A stretch of 64,000 nt of DNA from Longimicrobiales bacterium (lineage in GTDB: Bacteria; Gemmatimonadota; Gemmatimonadetes; Longimicrobiales; Gaopeijiaceae), in the NCBI GenBank assembly GCA_965218325.1, contig CBDCKR010000002.1, forward strand, positions 2,339,869 to 2,403,868, in the 5' to 3' direction. Position 1 is the first letter of the stretch. The number at the start of each line of letters is the position of its first letter. This document shows positions 25,529 through 32,391 of this stretch, piece by piece. The position numbers and the translations under genes are program-made. The notes beneath the pieces were generated by a model that made no database searches, was not told the origin of the DNA, and worked only from the letters and a program-made list of their open reading frames with translations.

Positions 25529-27508
25529 TTACCATGTGGCGATCTCTTCGGCCGTGGCTGAGATGACTGCCCTCGCGAGTCCAGTCTGAGAGCGGATGAT
25601 CCCGAGGTTCTGCCATGCCACGAGGAACTTCGTGGCCAAATAGTCGCGGCTGTCTCCGCTGTGACCTTGAAGAACCTCAATTGCAGCATCGCGCGCCGCC
25701 GTCATACCCGCTGTGCACGCGTAGTTGATGTGGCATTGAAAGAAATCTGGGAAGCCGTCACGGAGAGCCTCAAACGTAGCCCGGTCGATGGAAAGCGCCT
25801 TTTGAAACGCCACGCTCGATGCGTCATCCTCAAACTGGCGGACCGCTCTCAGGTAGAGTGCGAGTTCGAACCTCACCAGGTCTACTGCGGGATGGCCGGG
25901 TCCTAACGCTTCATAGTCGATTAGGTGGACTTCGCTTTCGCCCCGGATTAGCACGTTTCGTAGATGGACATCCCCGTGCACGACGGCCGACCTCTCCATG
26001 CTCCGGAAGCGCTCCGCGGCCGCCTTCCGCGCTCTTATAGCGCAATCACCTAAGCCCCAGAGGAAACCGTCGCGCTCAAGTGCTTCCAGGTGTGTAGCGG
26101 GGGGGTTGACGAAGGATTCGAGATCGATACTTGGCGGGGGCGTGTACTTGTTAAGCTTTGCCAGGGTTTGGGCAACGCGCGCCAGCGCCCGCGCTAAGAA
26201 CAGCCGATCCTCCTCCACCCCATCCGGATGACTCTGCATCCACTGTCTATCCCAGAGCTTGCCCAATCGCTCCTCAAGGGACTCGGCCGGAAGTGAAGGG
26301 TTCCCGTCACCACTGACTAGGCCGAAGAGGATGACTGCGGCCTTCCCGTGAAAGTGACACTCAGGTCTCAGTGCATCGTTCCAGGGCCGTACAAACGTCC
26401 GGACCCGCCGCATCTCATCTAGCGCGAGGCGTTTAGACGTGATCTTGGCCACGAATGGCGGAGTCTCACCGCACATGACGGTTGCCAGCCTTGCTTCGGA
26501 AAGCCCTCCCGGTAGAAAGCGAACGGTTAGCGGCCTCGAATCCAATTCCGGATCGAAGCCCTCTGCCCGCACTCGGGCTCGTGCTGCCGCGACGAGCAGG
26601 TGAGCTTCGTCTGAGGTCAGATCACCTAGGACGAAAGACGCGGATTCATGAGATTGCAGCAGCTTCGCCGCATTCCGGAAGAAGGACAGCTCAGCGTCCC
26701 GGATCGTCCTATTCGTCCGAAACGAGATTGTGTCGTGTGAAACAGGGGTGCCGAGCTGTCGCACCGTCTTGATGATTTGAGACGCGCCGTCGCGGGAAAG
26801 CTGTAGCCCGGCAGCTTCGTGCACGCGAATCGCAATGAAGCTGGAATAACCCGCGAGGGTCTTGAAGAGGGCATTCTGGGCTGTCGCATCGAGGAGCGTG
26901 AGTCCTGACTCGTCGATCGCGCACCCACAGACATCGGTACTTGTAGCCAGCACCTTTGCTAGGTCAGCGGGGGTCTCGACGACCACAGGGTCCAACCCCT
27001 TTCTCTGAAGCAGCCTTCGGTTAGCGTGCTGATGATCGGGATGGCACAGCAGCAGGACCGTTGAATAGGCCAGCCGTTCCTCGGCTGTTTCAAGGCTCCC
27101 TTGGCCACGACGGTCCGGTGCTACAACTGGAGACGGAGCCTCCGTTGTCTCTTGCGCCGCAAGTGTTGGTGTTCCCCGCTGGGACCCATAGACTTCCAGC
27201 CGGGCGCTGGCGGGAATGACGTTGGCAACGGTCGCGCGCAAATGAGCCGGGAATCCACGCGCCATTTGAGCAAGCGGCGAAAGCTGGTCTCGACGTAGCT
27301 GGAGACCCCGCAGCAGCGTCCCCAGGCGCTTCGCTTGAGTGCGCTTAGAAAGAAGGGGATTCCGGCTGAGAGCATCCGATACGTCACGCACGAGCTGCAC
27401 GGCAGAGTCTCCAGTCGGGACCTGCCAGCGCCCCAACGCGAGCGCGTCCTGAGCAATCCGATCAGCGTTGGCCGCGACACCCTCGATGAACTCATCGCGC
27501 GTCATCAC
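25529..27508 (-). CDS. Multidomain protein: helical N-terminus, REC-like (flavodoxin-fold) domain, C-terminal APH/protein-kinase-like phosphotransferase domain
   Basis: REC-like: VLLLCHPD..DPVVVET..VCGCAIDES..SFIAIRV. Kinase N-lobe: FLPGGLSEARLATV..PFVAKIT..DEMRRV. Catalytic loop VVHGDVHLRNVLI and IDYE. GTG 27508 / ATG 27505 overlaps the ATPase stop. Confidence 0.75.
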   Translation of the reverse strand: MMTRDEFIEGVAANADRIAQDALALGRWQVPTGDSAVQLVRDVSDALSRNPLLSKRTQAKRLGTLLRGLQLRRDQLSPLAQMARGFPAHLRATVANVIPASARLEVYGSQRGTPTLAAQETTEAPSPVVAPDRRGQGSLETAEERLAYSTVLLLCHPDHQHANRRLLQRKGLDPVVVETPADLAKVLATSTDVCGCAIDESGLTLLDATAQNALFKTLAGYSSFIAIRVHEAAGLQLSRDGASQIIKTVRQLGTPVSHDTISFRTNRTIRDAELSFFRNAAKLLQSHESASFVLGDLTSDEAHLLVAAARARVRAEGFDPELDSRPLTVRFLPGGLSEARLATVMCGETPPFVAKITSKRLALDEMRRVRTFVRPWNDALRPECHFHGKAAVILFGLVSGDGNPSLPAESLEERLGKLWDRQWMQSHPDGVEEDRLFLARALARVAQTLAKLNKYTPPPSIDLESFVNPPATHLEALERDGFLWGLGDCAIRARKAAAERFRSMERSAVVHGDVHLRNVLIRGESEVHLIDYEALGPGHPAVDLVRFELALYLRAVRQFEDDASSVAFQKALSIDRATFEALRDGFPDFFQCHINYACTAGMTAARDAAIEVLQGHSGDSRDYLATKFLVAWQNLGIIRSQTGLARAVISATAEEIATW

Positions 27509-29442
27509 GTCTCCGCGTTCACTGTCTCCGCTATCTCGCCATCCGACCCAGCCAAGAGTTCGCCATAGTGGCGTTCGCGCTCAACGAATGCTTCTGCCCC
27601 TCCCTCCAGGAGGTCGAGAATCTCCTGTTTCCGGATGTCCACACTCCCAGTCAGTGCGGGCGCCGCCTTCGTCGGGCCTTCCATGCTCATCACTACGATT
27701 TTCTCTGCTTCACCCAGCACGGGAATGTTCGCATTGTGAGTGACAAATATCAGTTGCCGCTTGGACTTTAGCTGGCGTAACGTGGTGATCAACGAGTTGA
27801 AGACGAAGCTATTGTCCAAATCGTCCTCCGGCTGGTCGAACAGCAGAGGATAAGGCAGAGGCCGAAGAATGATCGGTAAGAGAGCTGTCGCCCGCTGACC
27901 CTTGGAGAGCGTCTCGACCGGCTTGGGTTCCCCCTCATCAAAGAGGGTGACCTCCAAGCGAGCCGCCGGAAGTTCTGTCTCAACGTCATACAAGTCGCGA
28001 TGATCGCCGAGGTGCGCGATGACCCGCGTCATCTGCCCCAGATCGCGCCCGAGAAGGTCCGCGAGTCGCTGCGCATCCCCTGTCTCAGTCAAGTCGATCA
28101 GCGTGCTAGGTTCAATGCGGTCTGCGATTGAGCGTGCTACCTCTTCTTGCGACCGGATCCGGGAACCAGTAAGAAACGCACTCAGGCGCCCAGCGTACGT
28201 GCGGCTGTTCCACGATGATCCCAGCGTGAGTTGGACGGTATCACCGTGCTCGCGGTTGATCGAATCGATCTCAGCGATTCGCAACTCGTAAAGTTGGTCA
28301 TCAATCCGCTGCAGTTCGCCACGCAGGTTCGTCCGTTCCTTCAGAAGACGCGACTCCTCCACCCGTGCCGCTTCTGCCTGCGTCTTCAGCTGTTCCAGAT
28401 GTTCCACCTGTCGCTTCAGGACGTGCTGCTGCTTGAGCGACTCATTCACGGCTTGCTCCTGCTGCCGTAACTGATAGTACAGCTCGCTCGCTTCCTCGAA
28501 GCGCCTATCGAGAGCATCGATGAGCGGCGCCAGGCGTACCGAATCTACCTTCTGGGCCACCGTCATGACTTCGCCAACGGCGGCAGCTAGGTCCATCAGC
28601 GGAGCCGTCTCGTCTCGCAAGGCGCTTTCCGTATCCGCCGTGACTGATGCTATAGACTCGGCAATTCGGCGGGCTGGCCCCCGAACACGTTCGAGACGAT
28701 CCGCAAGACCTTCCCGCTCGACCTCTACGCCCCTTACTGCTTCTAGCATTTTCTGTCGGCGCTCGTGGCTTTGGCGTTCCGCTTCTAACTCTGGACTCGC
28801 AGTAGGGGCTTCCTTCGTAAGACTATCGAGCTGACTCCGGGCTGCGTCTAGTTGGGTGATCTCGTGATCCAAGGTGGAGAGCTGCCCCCGGATCTTTCGG
28901 AGGCCAGGCCCAAGGTACCTCAGCCTCTCAGCTGTCTTCTGTCGTTCCGCATTCAGCTCTGCCACTTGGTTTCTGTGCGGACGGTCGATCAACGCAAGAC
29001 GTAACTTGTCATTGTCGTCCTCTGCGAGCCGTTGAAGGTCTCCCTGAGAAAAAATCTCGATGTCCCGAAGGAGGTCACGGTTCGTGTGTTCCCGAACTCC
29101 ATCTACGAAGATTCGCGGTTCGCCACCGACTTCGCGTTCGAGCGTGACCTCCTGCTGCGAACTGCTATCGGCAGTCTCAAGCGCACACCGCACGCTACCC
29201 GCGCGTAGCGTGTTCTTGATGATCCCGTATGTTGGCCACCTCGGCTCACCGTCGTCGTCCTCCCCGATGAGCGTGGCAACCCGGACCTCTTCCAACTCGA
29301 ACGCAAAGCGGATGCTCTCGATGAGTGTGGACTTGCATGTGCCCCGGGCACCGATGATGCAGGTGAGGCCACGCCCGAGGTCAACGGGACAGTCCTCCAA
29401 AAACCCCGACGAGGTTGATACCGCCTTCAGGTAGGTGCTCAT
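27505..29442 (-). CDS. SMC/ABC-type ATPase with long coiled-coil insert (TrlF-like AAA ATPase signature)
   Basis: Walker A GARGTCKSTLIES. About 330 aa of heptad-rich coiled coil. Signature LSKGQRATALL. Walker B LLFDQPEDDLDN. QLIFVTHNANIPVLGEAEKIVVM. Confidence 0.8.
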   Translation of the reverse strand: MSTYLKAVSTSSGFLEDCPVDLGRGLTCIIGARGTCKSTLIESIRFAFELEEVRVATLIGEDDDGEPRWPTYGIIKNTLRAGSVRCALETADSSSQQEVTLEREVGGEPRIFVDGVREHTNRDLLRDIEIFSQGDLQRLAEDDNDKLRLALIDRPHRNQVAELNAERQKTAERLRYLGPGLRKIRGQLSTLDHEITQLDAARSQLDSLTKEAPTASPELEAERQSHERRQKMLEAVRGVEVEREGLADRLERVRGPARRIAESIASVTADTESALRDETAPLMDLAAAVGEVMTVAQKVDSVRLAPLIDALDRRFEEASELYYQLRQQEQAVNESLKQQHVLKRQVEHLEQLKTQAEAARVEESRLLKERTNLRGELQRIDDQLYELRIAEIDSINREHGDTVQLTLGSSWNSRTYAGRLSAFLTGSRIRSQEEVARSIADRIEPSTLIDLTETGDAQRLADLLGRDLGQMTRVIAHLGDHRDLYDVETELPAARLEVTLFDEGEPKPVETLSKGQRATALLPIILRPLPYPLLFDQPEDDLDNSFVFNSLITTLRQLKSKRQLIFVTHNANIPVLGEAEKIVVMSMEGPTKAAPALTGSVDIRKQEILDLLEGGAEAFVERERHYGELLAGSDGEIAETVNAET

Positions 29443-29474
29443 AGCAGGTCACCGGGCAATTGGGCTTTGGCTTC

Positions 29475-29504
29475 TTGTTCGCAGCAAGGTATTAGTATTA
29501 TAAT
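29475..29504 (+). promoter_or_regulatory. Putative sigma70-type promoter giving a (near-)leaderless mRNA for the 29513 gene
   Basis: TTGTTC (29475-29480), 18-nt spacer, perfect TATAAT (29499-29504). The ATG at 29513 lies only 8 nt past the -10 box. No RBS. AT-rich divergent intergenic region. Confidence 0.4.
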
Positions 29505-29512
29505 CTCGTTCA

Positions 29513-30082
29513 ATGGATGAGATCAAGAGACCACGCGACTATAGCGTCCTGCTCAGGAAGCCGGGAGACGGGCCGGACGCCTGGGGAACGTCGGCCGGCA
29601 TCAACGTCTTCTCGAGACTCAATGCCGAGCTGGTCCGGCTCACGGACAGCACCGTCGTTGTACTCGACTACTCAGGCGTCGAGCGGACGGATGTGAGCTT
29701 TCAACGAGAGGGGGTAGTCGAGACGGTGAAAAAGCATCGTCCCCGGCTCCTCTTCATCGCCTCTAACGTGGGTGACGAAGACGTGCTCGCGAATCTGGGC
29801 GCGGCACTGGAGGCTCGCGGCGAAACTCTGCTCGTCCGGCAGCGGGGGGAGCCGCCGCGTATTCTCGGCCGCCGATTGGCCAAGGAGCACGAGGATACTC
29901 TTTGGGCGGTCCACGAGCATCCTGGGTTCACATCAACTCAGCTGACTGTCCCACCGTATGGACTCGAAGGGTCTACGGCCTCTGCACGGCTGACAGCACT
30001 CTGGAAGGCGGGGTTGCTGGGCCGCATCCAAGGAGCCTCTCCGAGCGGTGGCCGAGAGTACCGGTACTATCCGATCCGTTGA
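29513..30082 (+). CDS. STAS-like (DUF4325-type) domain fused to a winged-helix DNA-binding domain
   Basis: ..VVVLDYSGVERTDVSFQREGVVETV.. (STAS-like). C-terminal ..WAVHEHPGFTSTQLT..ASARLTALWKAGLLGRIQ..REYRYYP (MarR-like wHTH). Confidence 0.55.
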   Translation: MDEIKRPRDYSVLLRKPGDGPDAWGTSAGINVFSRLNAELVRLTDSTVVVLDYSGVERTDVSFQREGVVETVKKHRPRLLFIASNVGDEDVLANLGAALEARGETLLVRQRGEPPRILGRRLAKEHEDTLWAVHEHPGFTSTQLTVPPYGLEGSTASARLTALWKAGLLGRIQGASPSGGREYRYYPIR

Positions 30083-30532
30083 CGCGTACGGCAGACCCTG
30101 GACTTTCCTCGTCCTTGGCAAGGCTTTGCATGACCTCATCGACCTGCGACGGCGATACGGATCATTCCCCACGCGCCGTCTCGGCCATGCGCAGCAGGAT
30201 GTCACCGGCGATGCCGAGGTGGCGCACTCGCTGCTCGCCCTCCAGTTGCGCAAGAGGCTGCCGTTCGAGGCCGTACCTGTTCACGGGCCCATCGTCCTGC
30301 CGGCCCCGCCCGGAACGGGCAAGACCACCCTGGCGCGAGGGTTGGCGAACACGGTCGCCGAAGCGCTTGAGGGGGCGAAAGCGCATTTCATCCAGATCGA
30401 TCCGCACCCCTGGCTACCGCGGCCCTGGGGAGGAGCCAGAAGGAAGTCGCCGAGCTCCTCCACCAGATCATCAGTAAGACTTCGTCGCTCGACTTCCCCT
30501 ATGCTTTCTACAAACGGAGGTGCACCCCATGA
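30048..30532 (+). pseudogene. Truncated and frameshifted AAA+ ATPase (Walker A only, TRIP13/Pch2-like spacing)
   Basis: ..VHGPIVLPAPPGTGKTTLARGLANTVAEAL..HFIQIDPH, then in the +1-shifted frame PLATAALGRSQKEVAELLHQII..RRCTP*. Its TGA overlaps the Ubl ATG (ATGA). No Walker B. Confidence 0.55.
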
Positions 30533-30777
30533 ATGGTGACACGCAAATTTTCGTGAGCGGTCGCGAGTACAAGGTCCCTGGCAATGTCGTCAGCTACGAG
30601 CAGGTCGTGAAGATCTGGAACCAGCTGCACGAGGCGGAGAACAAGCACATCATCGGCACGCCCGGCATCGACTACGAAGACAGCTTGAAAGGCGAGGACG
30701 GTATTCTCCTTCCGGGCAAGGACGTTCAAGTCAAGGACGGCACGAGCTTTTCGGTAGATCCCGAGCATGTCTCCTAA
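30529..30777 (+). CDS. Single-domain multiubiquitin-family ubiquitin-like protein
   Basis: GGAGG RBS. MNGDTQIFVSGREYKVPGNVVSYEQVV..LLPGKDVQVKDGTSFSVDPEHVS fits the multiubiquitin beta-grasp pattern. Overlaps the E1 gene by 11 nt. Confidence 0.65.
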   Translation: MNGDTQIFVSGREYKVPGNVVSYEQVVKIWNQLHEAENKHIIGTPGIDYEDSLKGEDGILLPGKDVQVKDGTSFSVDPEHVS

Positions 30778-31969
30778 GGATCGCCTCTCCGCGTTCGCGG
30801 AGCAGGCCGGGTTTACCGTCAGGGTCGAATCCGACGTTGTCCTGGCCGTCCAGGTTCCTTGTCTCCTTGCAGATGGGGTTGTGGGCACTTGCACTATTGA
30901 GAAGTCCTACGACCCGGCGAGCGAGAAACCGAATGACCGGATAGGCGGCGCAGCCCATGCGGTGCGGATCACCACTGACGAAGAGCACGACGGGCGTGTG
31001 TACCACGCGGATGGGAACCCTATTGAGAGCCGCATCGACGGCGACGGAAAAACCTGGTCGAACATCTCCATCCGGAAAGGTAGCCAAGGCAGCCCGGAGG
31101 AGGACGAGTCGGTGAGCGACTTGATCCACCGCTATGCGAAGCAGATCGTCGGGGCCGTGTCGGCGGCTGGCTACTCCGAAACCGCTTCTCTCGCGATGCG
31201 GGGTCCGTTCAAGATACCCAACACTTTCGAGGCACGGGCGGCGATAGGCCCGGTTCAGGATCGAATCCGCGATCAGCGGATTGCGATCATCGGCCTAGGC
31301 GGAACGGGCGCCTACGTCCTGGATCTTGTTGCCAAGACGCCCGTGATGGAAATTCATCTTTTGGATTCCGACGACGTTAACTGGCACAACTTCATGCGGG
31401 CGCCCGGCGCACCTACTGCCGAGGAGATTGAGTCGCGTCGCAAGGAGCCTCTTCGCAAAGTGGACTACTACCACTCCAAGTACGCTTCCCTCCGGGAAGG
31501 CATTTACCCCCACGCTGTCCGGGTGGATAGCCCGTCCAAGTTCGCCGCGTTTCTATCAGCTCATCCCATTGACTATGGCTTCGTGTGTATCGACCAACTG
31601 ACTGACAGCGATTCGCCGCGTCAGGATGTCGTCTACGCTGCGCTCTCGGAGGCGAGCGTTCCGTTCATAGATTCCGGTGTAAGCATCACGCTGGACAACC
31701 GCGCCATTGGGGGCGCTGTCACCACGAGCGCCTACTCTGGAGGCTCGCTGGCGTGGCAGGATGCCATACCGAATGCCAGAGTTCACGGCGATCGTCCCCG
31801 CTATCGCAACGTTCAACTGCCGGAAGTGAACGCGTTGGCGGCAGCGCTTGCGGTGATGGAGTGGCGGCGGCGCACCGGGCAGTATGTCTCAGAGTCCACT
31901 TCGTTCCTCCATAAGTTCCGGCTCGAGGCGCCGCGCATTGTCCCACAGCGGACTGACTCACAGGAGTGA
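30767..31969 (+). CDS. ThiF/E1-like adenylyltransferase with a ~130-aa N-terminal extra domain (possibly E2-like)
   Basis: Rossmann motif RIAIIGLGGTGAYVLDLVAKTPVMEIHLLDSDDV..NFMR, FVCIDQ, PFIDSG. The N-terminal domain is ..VQVPCLLADGVVGTCTIEKS..GRVYHADGNPIESRIDGDG.. Confidence 0.75.
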   Translation: MSPKDRLSAFAEQAGFTVRVESDVVLAVQVPCLLADGVVGTCTIEKSYDPASEKPNDRIGGAAHAVRITTDEEHDGRVYHADGNPIESRIDGDGKTWSNISIRKGSQGSPEEDESVSDLIHRYAKQIVGAVSAAGYSETASLAMRGPFKIPNTFEARAAIGPVQDRIRDQRIAIIGLGGTGAYVLDLVAKTPVMEIHLLDSDDVNWHNFMRAPGAPTAEEIESRRKEPLRKVDYYHSKYASLREGIYPHAVRVDSPSKFAAFLSAHPIDYGFVCIDQLTDSDSPRQDVVYAALSEASVPFIDSGVSITLDNRAIGGAVTTSAYSGGSLAWQDAIPNARVHGDRPRYRNVQLPEVNALAAALAVMEWRRRTGQYVSESTSFLHKFRLEAPRIVPQRTDSQE

Positions 31970-32391
31970 GGCCGGTGAGACTCCGCCCCTTCTTCGTAGA
32001 CGTATTGCCCGATTTTGACGCAATCAAAGCCGGTGAGCTCTGGATTAGCCACAGATACCGGACTGTCAACTTGCGCTGCCCCTGCGGTTGTGGCGATCTG
32101 ACCGTCCTGTCTCTCCACCCAAGTCGGTGGCACGTTCATTTCGATGGCAAGTCGGTCTCTCTGGACGGTCCTACGGGTGGGTCCGTGTGGGCCAATTCCG
32201 GCTGCGGCAGCCACTACTTCATAAGGAACAACGCCGTCATTTGGGCACGTAGAATCGATCCAGGCCGTCATTTGGAGTATGCCCAAGTCGAGCGGACCCG
32301 GCTGATTGCGTCTCACCGGAGCCGTCTGGCGTGGCGCTCCTGGCTCAAACGTGTATGCCGCTGTCTTTCGCTACGGAGTTGGCGTAAGTAG
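31966..32391 (+). CDS. DUF6527-family Zn-ribbon-like protein
   Basis: ..GELWISHRYRTVNLRCPCGCGDLTVLSLHP..WANSGCGSHYFIRNNAVIW.. The GTG start overlaps the E1 stop (GTGA). Confidence 0.6.
   Translation: MRPVRLRPFFVDVLPDFDAIKAGELWISHRYRTVNLRCPCGCGDLTVLSLHPSRWHVHFDGKSVSLDGPTGGSVWANSGCGSHYFIRNNAVIWARRIDPGRHLEYAQVERTRLIASHRSRLAWRSWLKRVCRCLSLRSWRK

What the first reader, a model, noticed from the sequence alone, without database searches (positions are those of the whole stretch)
29443..30082. Divergent STAS-like/wHTH gene with a leaderless-type promoter: possible partner-switching-style regulator of the ATPase-kinase pair
Seen in sequence:
- The 70-bp AT-rich divergent intergenic region has TTGTTC-18nt-TATAAT, with the ATG only 8 nt past the -10 box and no RBS.
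- The ATTATAAT core is palindromic, so it reads the same on both strands.
- The 189-aa product has a STAS/DUF4325-like segment (VLDYSGVERTDVSFQRE), with Thr/Ser at the position phosphorylated in SpoIIAA/RsbV-type STAS proteins, and a C-terminal winged helix.

Inference: a DNA-binding STAS protein encoded head-to-head with a kinase operon suggests regulation by phosphorylation. Here the kinase would have an APH fold rather than a GHKL fold.
Basis: inference. Interest (0 to 1): 0.6.

Follow-up and report, generated by a model that had tools for sequence, protein, structure and literature searches.

The report
CapS repressor with a non-CapK kinase
The small gene is a member of the CapS family, a DNA-binding repressor shown in 2026 to be switched off by phosphorylation. 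Here its usual partner kinase CapK is missing, and an unrelated ATPase-plus-kinase gene pair sits in that position, which suggests a second way of feeding signals into this immune-gene switch.

Summary
ORF 29513-30082 is real. It has a perfect TATAAT 8 nt before its ATG, no ribosome-binding site, and a STAS + winged-helix product.

It is not a new kind of protein. A profile of its 46-member family matches the CapS crystal structures over full length (PDB 9z72, E 3e-23; 9z71, E 1e-17). CapS is the repressor of Chambers et al., EMBO J 2026. The phosphorylated Ser54 of CapS aligns with Ser62 here, which is kept in 45 of 46 relatives.

As in published loci, a Bub ubiquitin-like operon lies downstream. 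The partner is the new part. Published capS always follows the GHKL kinase gene capK. Here, and in 6 other diverged loci, capK is absent, and none was found in this genome. Instead, a TrlF-like SMC/ABC ATPase and an APH/TCAD9-fold kinase are transcribed divergently. All 21 informative loci of this clade have one partner type or the other.

The leaderless-type promoter is conserved family-wide. A conserved palindrome centred on the start codon (29503-29523) looks like the CapS operator.

That the APH kinase phosphorylates Ser62 stays an inference (about 45%). The kinase pair also occurs without CapS.

This scan has met canonical CapK/CapS before on other DNA, but not this variant.

The parts
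29513..30082 (+). capS-family gene (P0001, 189 aa). STAS domain is about residues 1-120 and the winged HTH about 121-189. Predicted phospho-acceptor is Ser62; the wing-tip Gly179-Gly180 are kept.
   Evidence: Family profile against PDB 9z72/9z73 (E 2.8e-23) and 9z71 (E 1e-17), full length. AF2 model pLDDT 92. MarR-type fold hits. 65 homologues found. Ser62 kept in 45/46.
29499..29504 (+). -10 hexamer TATAAT of the capS promoter. It ends 8 nt before the ATG, which makes the mRNA leaderless-type.
   Evidence: The position is conserved in type A and type B loci and in canonical capS.
29475..29480 (+). Weak -35 candidate TTGTTC, with an 18-nt spacer to the -10.
   Evidence: It matches 3/6 and was not called by the scan. 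Type B relatives have TTGAC[ACG] at a 17-nt spacing.
29503..29523 (.). Inverted repeat ATCTCGTTCA-a-TGGATGAGAT (8/10), centred on the A of the ATG. Predicted CapS operator of the 'narrow' type, with half-site cores TTCA/TGGA.
   Evidence: The repeat sits at the same place in relatives, with a gap of 1 or 10 nt and changes matched between the arms.
29497..29526 (-). Minus-strand promoter TTGATC-18-TATAAT for the ATPase-kinase operon. It shares the palindromic -10 region, and its -35 lies inside the predicted operator.
   Evidence: 10/12 matches; 0.3 expected in shuffles. The same elements are read in L006, L008 and L010.
27505..29442 (-). SMC/ABC-type ATPase (P0002, 645 aa) with a long coiled coil. 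It is TrlF/Ppl-like but lacks the N-terminal ~296 positions of the TrlF model.
   Evidence: NCBIfam NF045780 E 6e-79, 266.8 bits (cut-off 350), profile positions 297-944. PADLOC Ppl E 2e-24. Pfam AAA_21 and SMC_N.
25529..27505 (-). Kinase (P0003, 658-659 aa). Domains: helical N-domain 1-107, REC-like alpha/beta domain about 150-290, APH/TCAD9 kinase domain about 325-659. Its start overlaps the ATPase stop (GTGATG).
   Evidence: Pfam TCAD9 45.6 bits (GA 40) and APH 39.6 bits (GA 23.2). K355, E365, H511-G-D513, N518 and D531 are invariant. Model and REC-like fold hits.
30048..30539 (+). Frameshifted stub of an AAA+ ATPase (Walker A PPGTGKTT) between capS and the Bub operon.
   Evidence: In L005, a relative's capS is followed by a Trip13-like AAA gene of a CBASS operon.
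30520..30777 (+). Ubiquitin-like protein (Multi_ubiq), first gene of the Bub operon.
   Evidence: Pfam PF14452 E 1.6e-6.
30767..31969 (+). E1-like ThiF-family adenylyltransferase of the Bub operon.
   Evidence: Pfam ThiF E 4e-10. 34% identical to the E1 of the capKS-linked Bub operon in L002.
31966..32391 (+). DUF6527/BubE protein of the Bub operon.
   Evidence: Pfam PF20137 E 1e-15.

Best explanation
P0001 is a CapS-family repressor ('controller of associated pathways'). Each step below is marked as shown or inferred.

Shown by homology: it has the CapS STAS-wHTH architecture, the serine equivalent to the phosphorylated Ser54 of Enterobacter CapS (Ser62 here), and the wing-tip Gly-Gly.

Inferred from conserved sequence: a CapS dimer binds the inverted repeat centred on its own start codon (29503-29523). 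That repeat overlaps the start site of its own leaderless-type promoter. It also overlaps the -35 and spacer of the back-to-back minus-strand promoter. In the resting state, CapS would therefore repress both itself and the divergent ATPase-kinase operon. It probably also limits read-through into the Bub operon downstream.

Inferred from gene neighbourhoods only: in this lineage the CapK GHKL kinase has been replaced as signal input by the translationally coupled pair P0002 and P0003. P0002 is an SMC/ABC ATPase and the likely sensor of DNA ends, ssDNA or a phage product. P0003 is a REC-like + APH/TCAD9 kinase. Once activated, P0003 would phosphorylate Ser62, break the CapS dimer and de-repress the locus, which would give positive feedback on its own expression.
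For: Membership:
- Family profile against CapS crystal structures: 9z72/9z73 E 2.8e-23, 9z71 E 1e-17, end to end.
- 27% identity, E 7e-18, to the CapS of a canonical capK-capS-Bub locus on a Citrobacter plasmid.
- Ser62 sits at the N-terminus of helix alpha2 and is kept in 45/46 members; D60 and E66 are invariant.
- A Bub operon lies downstream, which is the commonest published cargo.

Partner:
- Of 21 informative loci, 14 have a CapK homologue directly upstream (hhalign against Citrobacter CapK: 99.9%, E 8e-35).
- The other 7 have the divergent ATPase + APH kinase. No locus has neither.
- Type A persists from 100% down to 52% CapS identity, beside unrelated flanks: type I R-M, BREX, Z1, XhoI.
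- On the CapS tree, partner type follows phylogeny.
- On the ATPase tree, CapS-linked loci lie on both sides of the midpoint root.
- No CapK was found in the 94.8%-complete genome.
- The kinase catalytic residues are invariant.

Operator:
- An inverted repeat sits at exactly -8..-1 and beyond the ATG, with a gap of 1 or 10 nt. These are the two spacings published for CapS narrow and wide palindromes.
- It matches at >=7/8 in 8 of 15 loci, against a background of 0.0015 per site.
- Second palindromes lie downstream of capS in L012, L017, L020, L022 and L023.

Promoters.
Against: - No experiment or RNA data exists for this locus.
- The ATPase-kinase pair also occurs without CapS: beside an XRE-HTH/M78-peptidase fusion (L034), beside an unknown 315-aa protein (L032, L035), or decayed (L033). 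Its catalytic residues are intact in all of these. The kinase therefore has a role that does not need CapS, and the pair may simply be regulated cargo.
- One type A CapS (L012/P0041) has Asn instead of the phospho-serine.
- APH-fold enzymes are mostly small-molecule kinases.
- P0003 shows no similarity to CapK.
- The window's own palindrome is imperfect (8/10).
- No second operator was found before the Bub operon in the window.
- DNA-contact residues N145 and K151 of Enterobacter CapS are Thr here.
- The plus-strand -35 is weak.
Confidence: 0.55

Rival explanations
1. Cargo-only model. CapS is the repressor of the divergent ATPase-kinase operon, which is a self-contained immune module. The kinase acts on other targets (phage or host proteins, or a small molecule) and does not phosphorylate CapS. 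CapS would then be relieved some other way: an unlinked kinase, titration, proteolysis or direct ligand binding. Alternatively it is a plain autoregulator.
For: - In L034 the same slot is filled by an XRE-HTH + M78 peptidase fusion, a CapH/CapP-like self-contained damage-responsive regulator. In L032 and L035 it is filled by another gene.
- These CapS-less loci form one clade on the ATPase tree (100/100), which looks like a regulator swap upstream of a constant cargo.
- Kinase catalytic residues are conserved with or without CapS.
- P0002 resembles defence ATPases: Ppl, AriA, LmuB, GajA.
- L012 lacks the phospho-serine.
Against: - In this clade CapS was never seen without a kinase gene next to it (21/21 loci).
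- No CapK in the genome could act in trans.
- Ser62 and its surroundings remain under strong conservation in type A. That conservation could also reflect the dimer interface.
- Where type A loci have a co-directional cargo (window, L012), the ATPase-kinase pair occupies the upstream 'CapK side'.
Confidence: 0.33
2. The inverted repeat over the start codon acts in RNA, not DNA. A hairpin would sequester the AUG in transcripts that start upstream, for example read-through from capK in type B loci. In that case the repeat is a translational control element, not the CapS operator.
For: The two arms change together between loci while staying complementary, which is typical of RNA stems: CTCATTCA/TGAATGAG-like, CTGTTTCA/TGAATCAG, CCGTTTCA/TGAAACGG.
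Against: - The conserved -10 hexamer ends 8 nt before the ATG, so the upstream arm would not be in the transcript made from this promoter.
- Type A loci have no co-directional gene upstream.
- The two arm spacings (1 and 10 nt) equal the two spacings shown experimentally for CapS DNA sites.
- Similar palindromes recur downstream of capS in front of cargo operons.
Confidence: 0.07
3. Chance juxtaposition. The window's capS would be an orphan left behind after rearrangement of a capK-capS-CBASS locus (see the AAA+ stub), and its position next to the ATPase-kinase pair would have no function.
For: A frameshifted AAA+ stub follows capS. The island is mosaic, with an integrase and a transposase nearby.
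Against: The same divergent three-gene arrangement, with a conserved intergenic layout, occurs in 6 further loci down to 52% CapS, 53% ATPase and 42% kinase identity, in different surroundings and phyla.
Confidence: 0.05

Closest known systems
CapK + CapS, 'controller of associated pathways' (Chambers, Rani, Min, Villa, Corbett, EMBO J 2026, PMC13373217; CapS structures PDB 9Z71, 9Z72, 9Z73)
   Same: - STAS + wHTH protein of about 185 aa, homologous over full length.
- Conserved serine at the start of STAS helix alpha2 and a Gly-Gly wing tip.
- Sits at the head of a Bub operon.
- Its own promoter is overlapped by a palindrome.
- Palindrome arm spacings of 1 and 10 nt occur in the clade.
- Sister lineage (type B loci) has a genuine CapK directly upstream.
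   Different: - No capK next to it, and none found in the genome.
- A divergently transcribed SMC/ABC ATPase plus an APH/TCAD9-fold kinase, unrelated to GHKL, lies upstream instead.
- Half-site core is TTCA/TGAA rather than TTAA, and the recognition-helix residues differ (T155, T161 against N145, K151).
- The operator is centred on the start codon rather than on the -10.
- Only about 27-30% identity to the characterised proteins.
SpoIIAA/SpoIIAB and RsbV/RsbW partner-switching modules
   Same: A STAS domain with a phosphorylatable serine at the N-terminus of alpha2. Regulation of gene expression by a dedicated serine kinase, as established for CapS/CapK by analogy and experiment.
   Different: - The STAS protein is itself the DNA-binding repressor.
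- No sigma factor or anti-sigma factor was seen in the locus.
- The candidate kinase has a protein-kinase-like (APH) fold.
CapH + CapP and CapW/BrxR regulators of CBASS, BREX and Bub operons
   Same: Small repressor genes at the 5' edge of immune operons that de-repress on a damage or infection signal. In one relative of the ATPase-kinase pair (L034), an XRE-HTH + M78 peptidase fusion of the CapH/CapP type occupies the CapS position.
   Different: Unrelated folds and mechanisms: proteolysis of an XRE repressor, or ligand binding by a WYL domain.
Ppl / TrlF-family and other ABC-type defence ATPases (AriA, GajA, LmuB)
   Same: P0002 shares the ABC/SMC head and coiled-coil architecture. It matches the TrlF model over positions 297-944 and the Ppl C-terminus.
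   Different: It lacks the N-terminal ~296 positions of the TrlF/Ppl models, scores below the NCBIfam cut-off, and is coupled to a kinase rather than a nuclease.

Membership tests
CapS (Chambers et al. 2026) | N-terminal STAS domain followed by a C-terminal winged HTH, about 180-190 aa, homologous to the crystallised CapS proteins | tested here: met
   Family profile against 9z72/9z73 (E 2.8e-23, residues 7-189 aligned to 4-184) and 9z71 (E 1e-17). AF2 topology. MarR-type fold hits for the C-terminal domain. BLASTP E 7e-18 to Citrobacter CapS.
CapS (Chambers et al. 2026) | Absolutely conserved serine on STAS helix alpha2 (Ser54 in E. roggenkampii), the site phosphorylated by CapK | tested here: met
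   Ser62 in D-V-S-F aligns with D-S-S-F (9z71) and D-A-A-F (9z72, the S58A mutant). Kept in 45/46 family members; the exception is P0041 with Asn.
CapS (Chambers et al. 2026) | Conserved DNA-contact residues N145 and K151, and Gly169-Gly170 at the wing tip | tested here: inconclusive
   Gly179-Gly180 are kept (45/46). N145 aligns with Thr155 and K151 with Thr161 in this clade. This is consistent with a different half-site.
CapS (Chambers et al. 2026) | Encoded immediately downstream of capK (all 443 published cases) | tested here: not met
   The upstream neighbour is the divergent ATPase gene. No CapK homologue was found in the genome; the best GHKL hit is E 6e-7 in an unrelated 503-aa ORF. 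Sister type B loci do have CapK.
CapS (Chambers et al. 2026) | Placed at the head of an immune or stress operon (Bub, CBASS, Bil and others) | tested here: met
   Multi_ubiq, ThiF E1 and DUF6527 genes lie at 30520-32391, co-directional. An AAA+ stub lies between them and capS.
CapS (Chambers et al. 2026) | Binds palindromes with half-sites 1 bp or 10 bp apart that overlap its own promoter and the cargo promoter | not testable with these tools
   In silico only. No second site was found in the window.
SpoIIAA/RsbV partner-switching module | Cognate GHKL anti-sigma kinase and a sigma factor as the output | tested here: not met
   No HATPase_c, sigma factor or anti-sigma gene appeared among the ORFs scanned around the locus.
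Pfam DUF4325 (STAS-like) / STAS_2 | Score above the Pfam gathering threshold | tested here: not met
   P0001 against STAS_2: 13.1 bits (GA 29.2), E 0.11. Among family members, DUF4325 is hit weakly in 3/46 and STAS_2 in 5/46.
TCAD9 / APH protein-kinase-like family (P0003) | Pfam gathering score, plus the catalytic Lys, Glu, HxD..N loop and metal-binding Asp | tested here: met
   TCAD9 45.6 bits (GA 40) and APH 39.6 bits (GA 23.2). K355, E365, H511, D513, N518 and D531 are invariant in 18 homologues and in L010 and L012.
TrlF-family AAA-like ATPase, NF045780 (P0002) | Score above the NCBIfam equivalog cut-off over the whole model | tested here: not met
   266.8 bits against a cut-off of 350. 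Only profile positions 297-944 of 944 are matched.

The most novel reading that the evidence does not exclude
A kinase of an unrelated fold (APH/TCAD9, with a REC-like domain), working with an SMC/ABC ATPase sensor, has taken over CapK's job of phosphorylating the CapS serine. The CapS switch would then be a general output module that can be wired to non-homologous kinases and to a different danger signal than ssDNA binding by CapK. The three genes would form a self-amplifying immune module, which in this genome also gates a Bub operon.
Probability: 0.4. Interest if true: 0.7.

Novelty: new variant of a known kind. Interest (0 to 1): 0.55.

Why it matters
CapK/CapS was described only in 2026, as a fixed gene pair found by searching from CapK. 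Searching from CapS instead shows a lineage in which the repressor, its phospho-serine and its promoter-operator layout are kept, but CapK is replaced by an ABC ATPase plus a protein-kinase-like enzyme.

If that kinase acts on CapS, it would be a clear case of non-orthologous displacement in a bacterial immune signalling switch. It would also point to a new sensor input and give a testable function to an uncharacterised ATPase-kinase module found in defence islands.

Independently of that, the analysis adds two general features of capS genes that the paper does not mention. One is a family-wide leaderless-type promoter. The other, in this clade, is an operator centred on the start codon that sits between back-to-back promoters.

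Tried and rejected
- P0003 as a disguised CapK: hhalign of the kinase family against the CapK family gave no similarity (probability 0.2%).
- Fold of P0003: the AF2 model is only moderately confident (pLDDT 62, kinase C-lobe below 50). The fold search gave weak REC-domain and APH hits, none with E <= 0.001, so I use it only as a hint for a REC-like middle domain.
- Fold search of the whole P0001 model returned only wHTH matches. That library predates the CapS entries, so the STAS assignment rests on sequence homology to the CapS structures and on topology.
- More loci: viral contigs held no relative of CapS and only a trivial kinase fragment. Plasmids held no kinase homologue and only canonical, distant CapS.
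- A sample of 401 genomes of the same phylum held the module in 2, one of them decayed. It is therefore sporadic, and no phylum-level statistic was possible.
- One kinase context (L045) ended inside the ATPase gene and was uninformative.
It remains plausible as a shared -10 for both strands.
- A second CapS site in front of the window's Bub operon: none found.
- PADLOC and NCBIfam have no model for P0001.
Full report
**Observation**

- The ATPase gene P0002 starts at 29442 on the minus strand.
- The 70-bp spacer 29443-29512 has 45.7% GC, in a window of 64.7% GC.
- TTGTTC (29475-29480) is followed after 18 nt by a perfect TATAAT (29499-29504). Then come 8 nt (CTCGTTCA) and the ATG at 29513.
- There is no Shine-Dalgarno-like motif. 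An in-frame TAA at 29501-29503 rules out any earlier start.
- A neutral consensus scan does not call the plus-strand promoter, because its -35 matches only 3 of 6.
- The scan does call a minus-strand promoter, TTGATC-18-TATAAT (29526->29497, 10/12, 0.3 expected in shuffles).

**What the protein is**

P0001 has 65 homologues of about 47% identity or more, all unannotated and from metagenomes. The N-terminus M-x-x-[IM]-K is conserved, which supports the start codon.

AlphaFold2 on the 46-sequence alignment gives pLDDT 92. The model shows a beta-beta-alpha-beta-alpha-beta-alpha-beta-beta domain followed by a winged helix. The C-terminal part matches MarR-type wHTH structures. Pfam evidence is weak: STAS_2 at E 0.11 for P0001 itself, and among family members MarR in 15/46, STAS_2 in 5/46 and DUF4325 in 3/46.

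A literature search found Chambers et al., EMBO J 2026 (PMC13373217). That paper reports the following:
- CapS is a STAS-wHTH repressor encoded after the HTH-STAS-GHKL kinase CapK, upstream of Bub, CBASS, Bil and other operons.
- ssDNA activates CapK, which phosphorylates CapS Ser54 on STAS helix alpha2. This breaks the CapS dimer and de-represses transcription.
- CapS binds TTAA half-sites spaced 1 bp apart ('narrow', in its own promoter) or 10 bp apart ('wide', in the cargo promoter).

The P0001 family profile matches the deposited CapS structures end to end: 9z72/9z73 at E 2.8e-23 and 9z71 at E 1e-17. P0001 is 27% identical (E 7e-18) to the CapS of a canonical capK-capS-Bub locus on a Citrobacter koseri plasmid.
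- The phospho-serine aligns with Ser62 (D60-V-S62-F63), at the N-terminus of predicted helix 61-75.
- Ser62 is kept in 45 of 46 relatives, whereas Thr59 is not conserved.
- The wing-tip Gly-Gly is kept. The DNA-contact residues N145 and K151 are Thr in this clade, which suggests a different half-site.

**Surroundings**

Downstream and co-directional lie four features:
- a frameshifted AAA+ stub (30048-30539);
- a multiubiquitin Ubl gene (30520-30777);
- a ThiF E1 gene (30767-31969);
- a DUF6527/BubE gene (31966-32391).

The last three form a Bub operon, which is the commonest published CapS cargo.

Upstream and divergent lie P0002 and P0003.
- P0002 is an SMC/ABC ATPase. It matches the TrlF-family model at positions 297-944 (E 6e-79, below cut-off) and the Ppl C-terminus at E 2e-24.
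- P0003 overlaps the ATPase stop codon. It has an APH/TCAD9 kinase domain scoring above both Pfam thresholds. The catalytic Lys, Glu, HGD..N loop and metal-binding Asp are invariant.
- P0003 also has a confident helical N-domain and a REC-like alpha/beta domain (weak fold evidence).

**The partner is what is new**

I collected 30 loci holding CapS relatives and typed their neighbours by tblastn.
- Fourteen distinct loci (type B) have a gene of about 305 aa directly upstream on the same strand. It is homologous to canonical CapK but lacks CapK's N-terminal HTH (hhalign 99.9%, E 8e-35 against Citrobacter CapK). Bub, Bil-like or type III CBASS operons follow.
- Seven distinct loci (type A: the window, L006, L008, L010, L012, L013, L020) have no CapK. 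They have the divergent ATPase + APH-kinase pair instead.
- No informative locus had neither partner. Two further copies are decayed fragments.

Type A spans CapS identities from 100% to 52% and kinase identities down to 42%. It lies beside unrelated flanks (type I R-M, BREX, Z1/GHKL, XhoI R-M) in Gemmatimonadota and a gammaproteobacterial MAG.

On a CapS tree rooted with the crystallised proteins, type B is one clade (92/92) and type A is the grade below it. The window's genome, 94.8% complete, has no CapK homologue. The paper searched from CapK and contains no occurrence of the search words orphan, phosphotransferase, leaderless or ABC, nor of the phrases 'lacking capK' or 'without capK'.

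**Evidence that tempers the kinase-to-CapS inference**

I searched from the kinase and looked up five contexts.
- The pair occurs beside an XRE-HTH + M78-peptidase fusion (L034), which is a CapH/CapP-like regulator.
- It occurs beside a conserved unknown 315-aa protein (L032, L035).
- It occurs in decayed form (L033).
- The fifth context ended at a contig edge and was uninformative.

These CapS-less loci form one clade on the ATPase tree (100/100), and CapS-linked loci lie on both sides of the midpoint root. CapS linkage therefore looks ancestral, with one regulator swap.

Kinase catalytic residues are intact everywhere, so the kinase has a function that does not depend on CapS. One type A CapS (L012) has Asn at the phosphosite. 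The kinase family shows no similarity to CapK.

**Promoter and operator**

Family-wide, a -10-like hexamer ends 8 nt before the ATG, followed by a conserved CTCRTTCA/CYGTTTCG stretch and no SD. It ends 7 nt before the ATG in distant members and in the Citrobacter locus.
- Eight of nine type B loci have TTGAC[ACG] at a 17-nt spacing.
- The leaderless-type layout is therefore a conserved property of capS genes. It still needs a mapped 5' end.

An inverted repeat occupies -10..-1 and the first codons.
- With a 1-nt gap: ATCTCATTCA-a-TGGATGAGAT in L006, L008 and L013; ATCTGTTTCA-a-TGAATCAGAT in L010; 8/10 in the window at 29503-29523.
- With a 10-nt gap: L012 and most type B loci, for example TTCCGTTTCA-N10-TGAAACGGAA in L021.
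- Its inner core is TTCA/TGAA, and the two gaps equal the published narrow and wide CapS spacings.
- At that exact position, 8 of 15 loci reach >=7/8 matches, against a background of 0.0015 per site. The loci are not fully independent.
- Similar palindromes lie just downstream of capS in L012, L017, L020, L022 and L023. None was found in the window.
- In the window the repeat also covers the -35 of the minus-strand promoter, so one bound dimer could shut both promoters.

**Verdict**

The gene is a CapS-family repressor, which is a known kind, in a previously undescribed CapK-less arrangement. For this locus it is supported by synteny but unproven.

My estimates:
- about 0.95 that it is a CapS homologue;
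- about 0.75 that it autoregulates through the start-codon palindrome and controls the divergent operon;
- about 0.4-0.45 that the APH/TCAD9 kinase phosphorylates Ser62.

The main rival is that the ATPase-kinase pair is only regulated cargo.

Earlier notes of this scan record canonical CapK/CapS pairs in other genomes, but none with this partner.

Noticed in passing
window 30048-30539: Frameshifted AAA+ ATPase stub (Walker A PPGTGKTT) between capS and the Bub operon. In relative L005, capS is followed by YjzC and a Trip13-like AAA gene of a type III CBASS operon. The stub may therefore be a remnant of an earlier CBASS cargo replaced by Bub.
   Followed up: partly
L002 8646-8837; L005 8742-8927; L015 8006-8192: A 61-63 aa YjzC-like ORF sits directly after capS in several type B loci, before the cargo operon. 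It is frameshifted in L015. The paper mentions YegP-like genes after capS, not YjzC.
   Followed up: no
L034 2643-3797 (minus strand): A 384-aa XRE-HTH + M78 peptidase fusion, like a fused CapH/CapP, sits divergently upstream of an ATPase/APH-kinase pair, in the position CapS holds in the window.
   Followed up: partly
L032 2852-3799 and L035 3-539 (minus strand): A conserved protein of about 315 aa with no Pfam match lies divergently upstream of the ATPase/kinase pair in two loci. In both, N6_N4 methyltransferase and N6_Mtase/Eco57I genes follow the kinase.
   Followed up: no
L012 8001-8570 (P0041): This type A CapS has Asn (ADVNF) where all 45 other aligned relatives have the phospho-acceptor Ser. 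It could be a one-base change, an inactive copy or a sequencing error.
   Followed up: no
L037/L038 (G342, same family as the window's genome), kinase fragment next to CapS fragments: A decayed copy of the module. The last ~90 residues of the kinase abut two CapS fragments, so the ATPase and most of the kinase have been deleted.
   Followed up: partly
window 25529-27505 (P0003 residues ~150-290): The middle domain of the kinase is predicted with high confidence as a flavodoxin/REC-like alpha/beta domain. It has an invariant Asp199 at the end of the third strand (CAID), where receiver domains carry their phospho-Asp.
   Followed up: partly
L047 4919-4958 (Citrobacter koseri plasmid NZ_CP136753.1): A canonical capS also has TTGACA-17-TTAATT with only 7 nt to its ATG. 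TTAAtTTAA overlaps the -10, and the promoter lies inside the 3' end of capK. The leaderless layout therefore seems general for capS, and the 2026 paper does not mention it.
   Followed up: partly
L008 56-3720: Beyond the kinase gene lies a Multi_ubiq/ThiF operon with its own HTH_31 + Peptidase_M78 (CapH/CapP-like) regulator pair. Two differently regulated modules are thus adjacent in one island, next to BREX genes.
   Followed up: no
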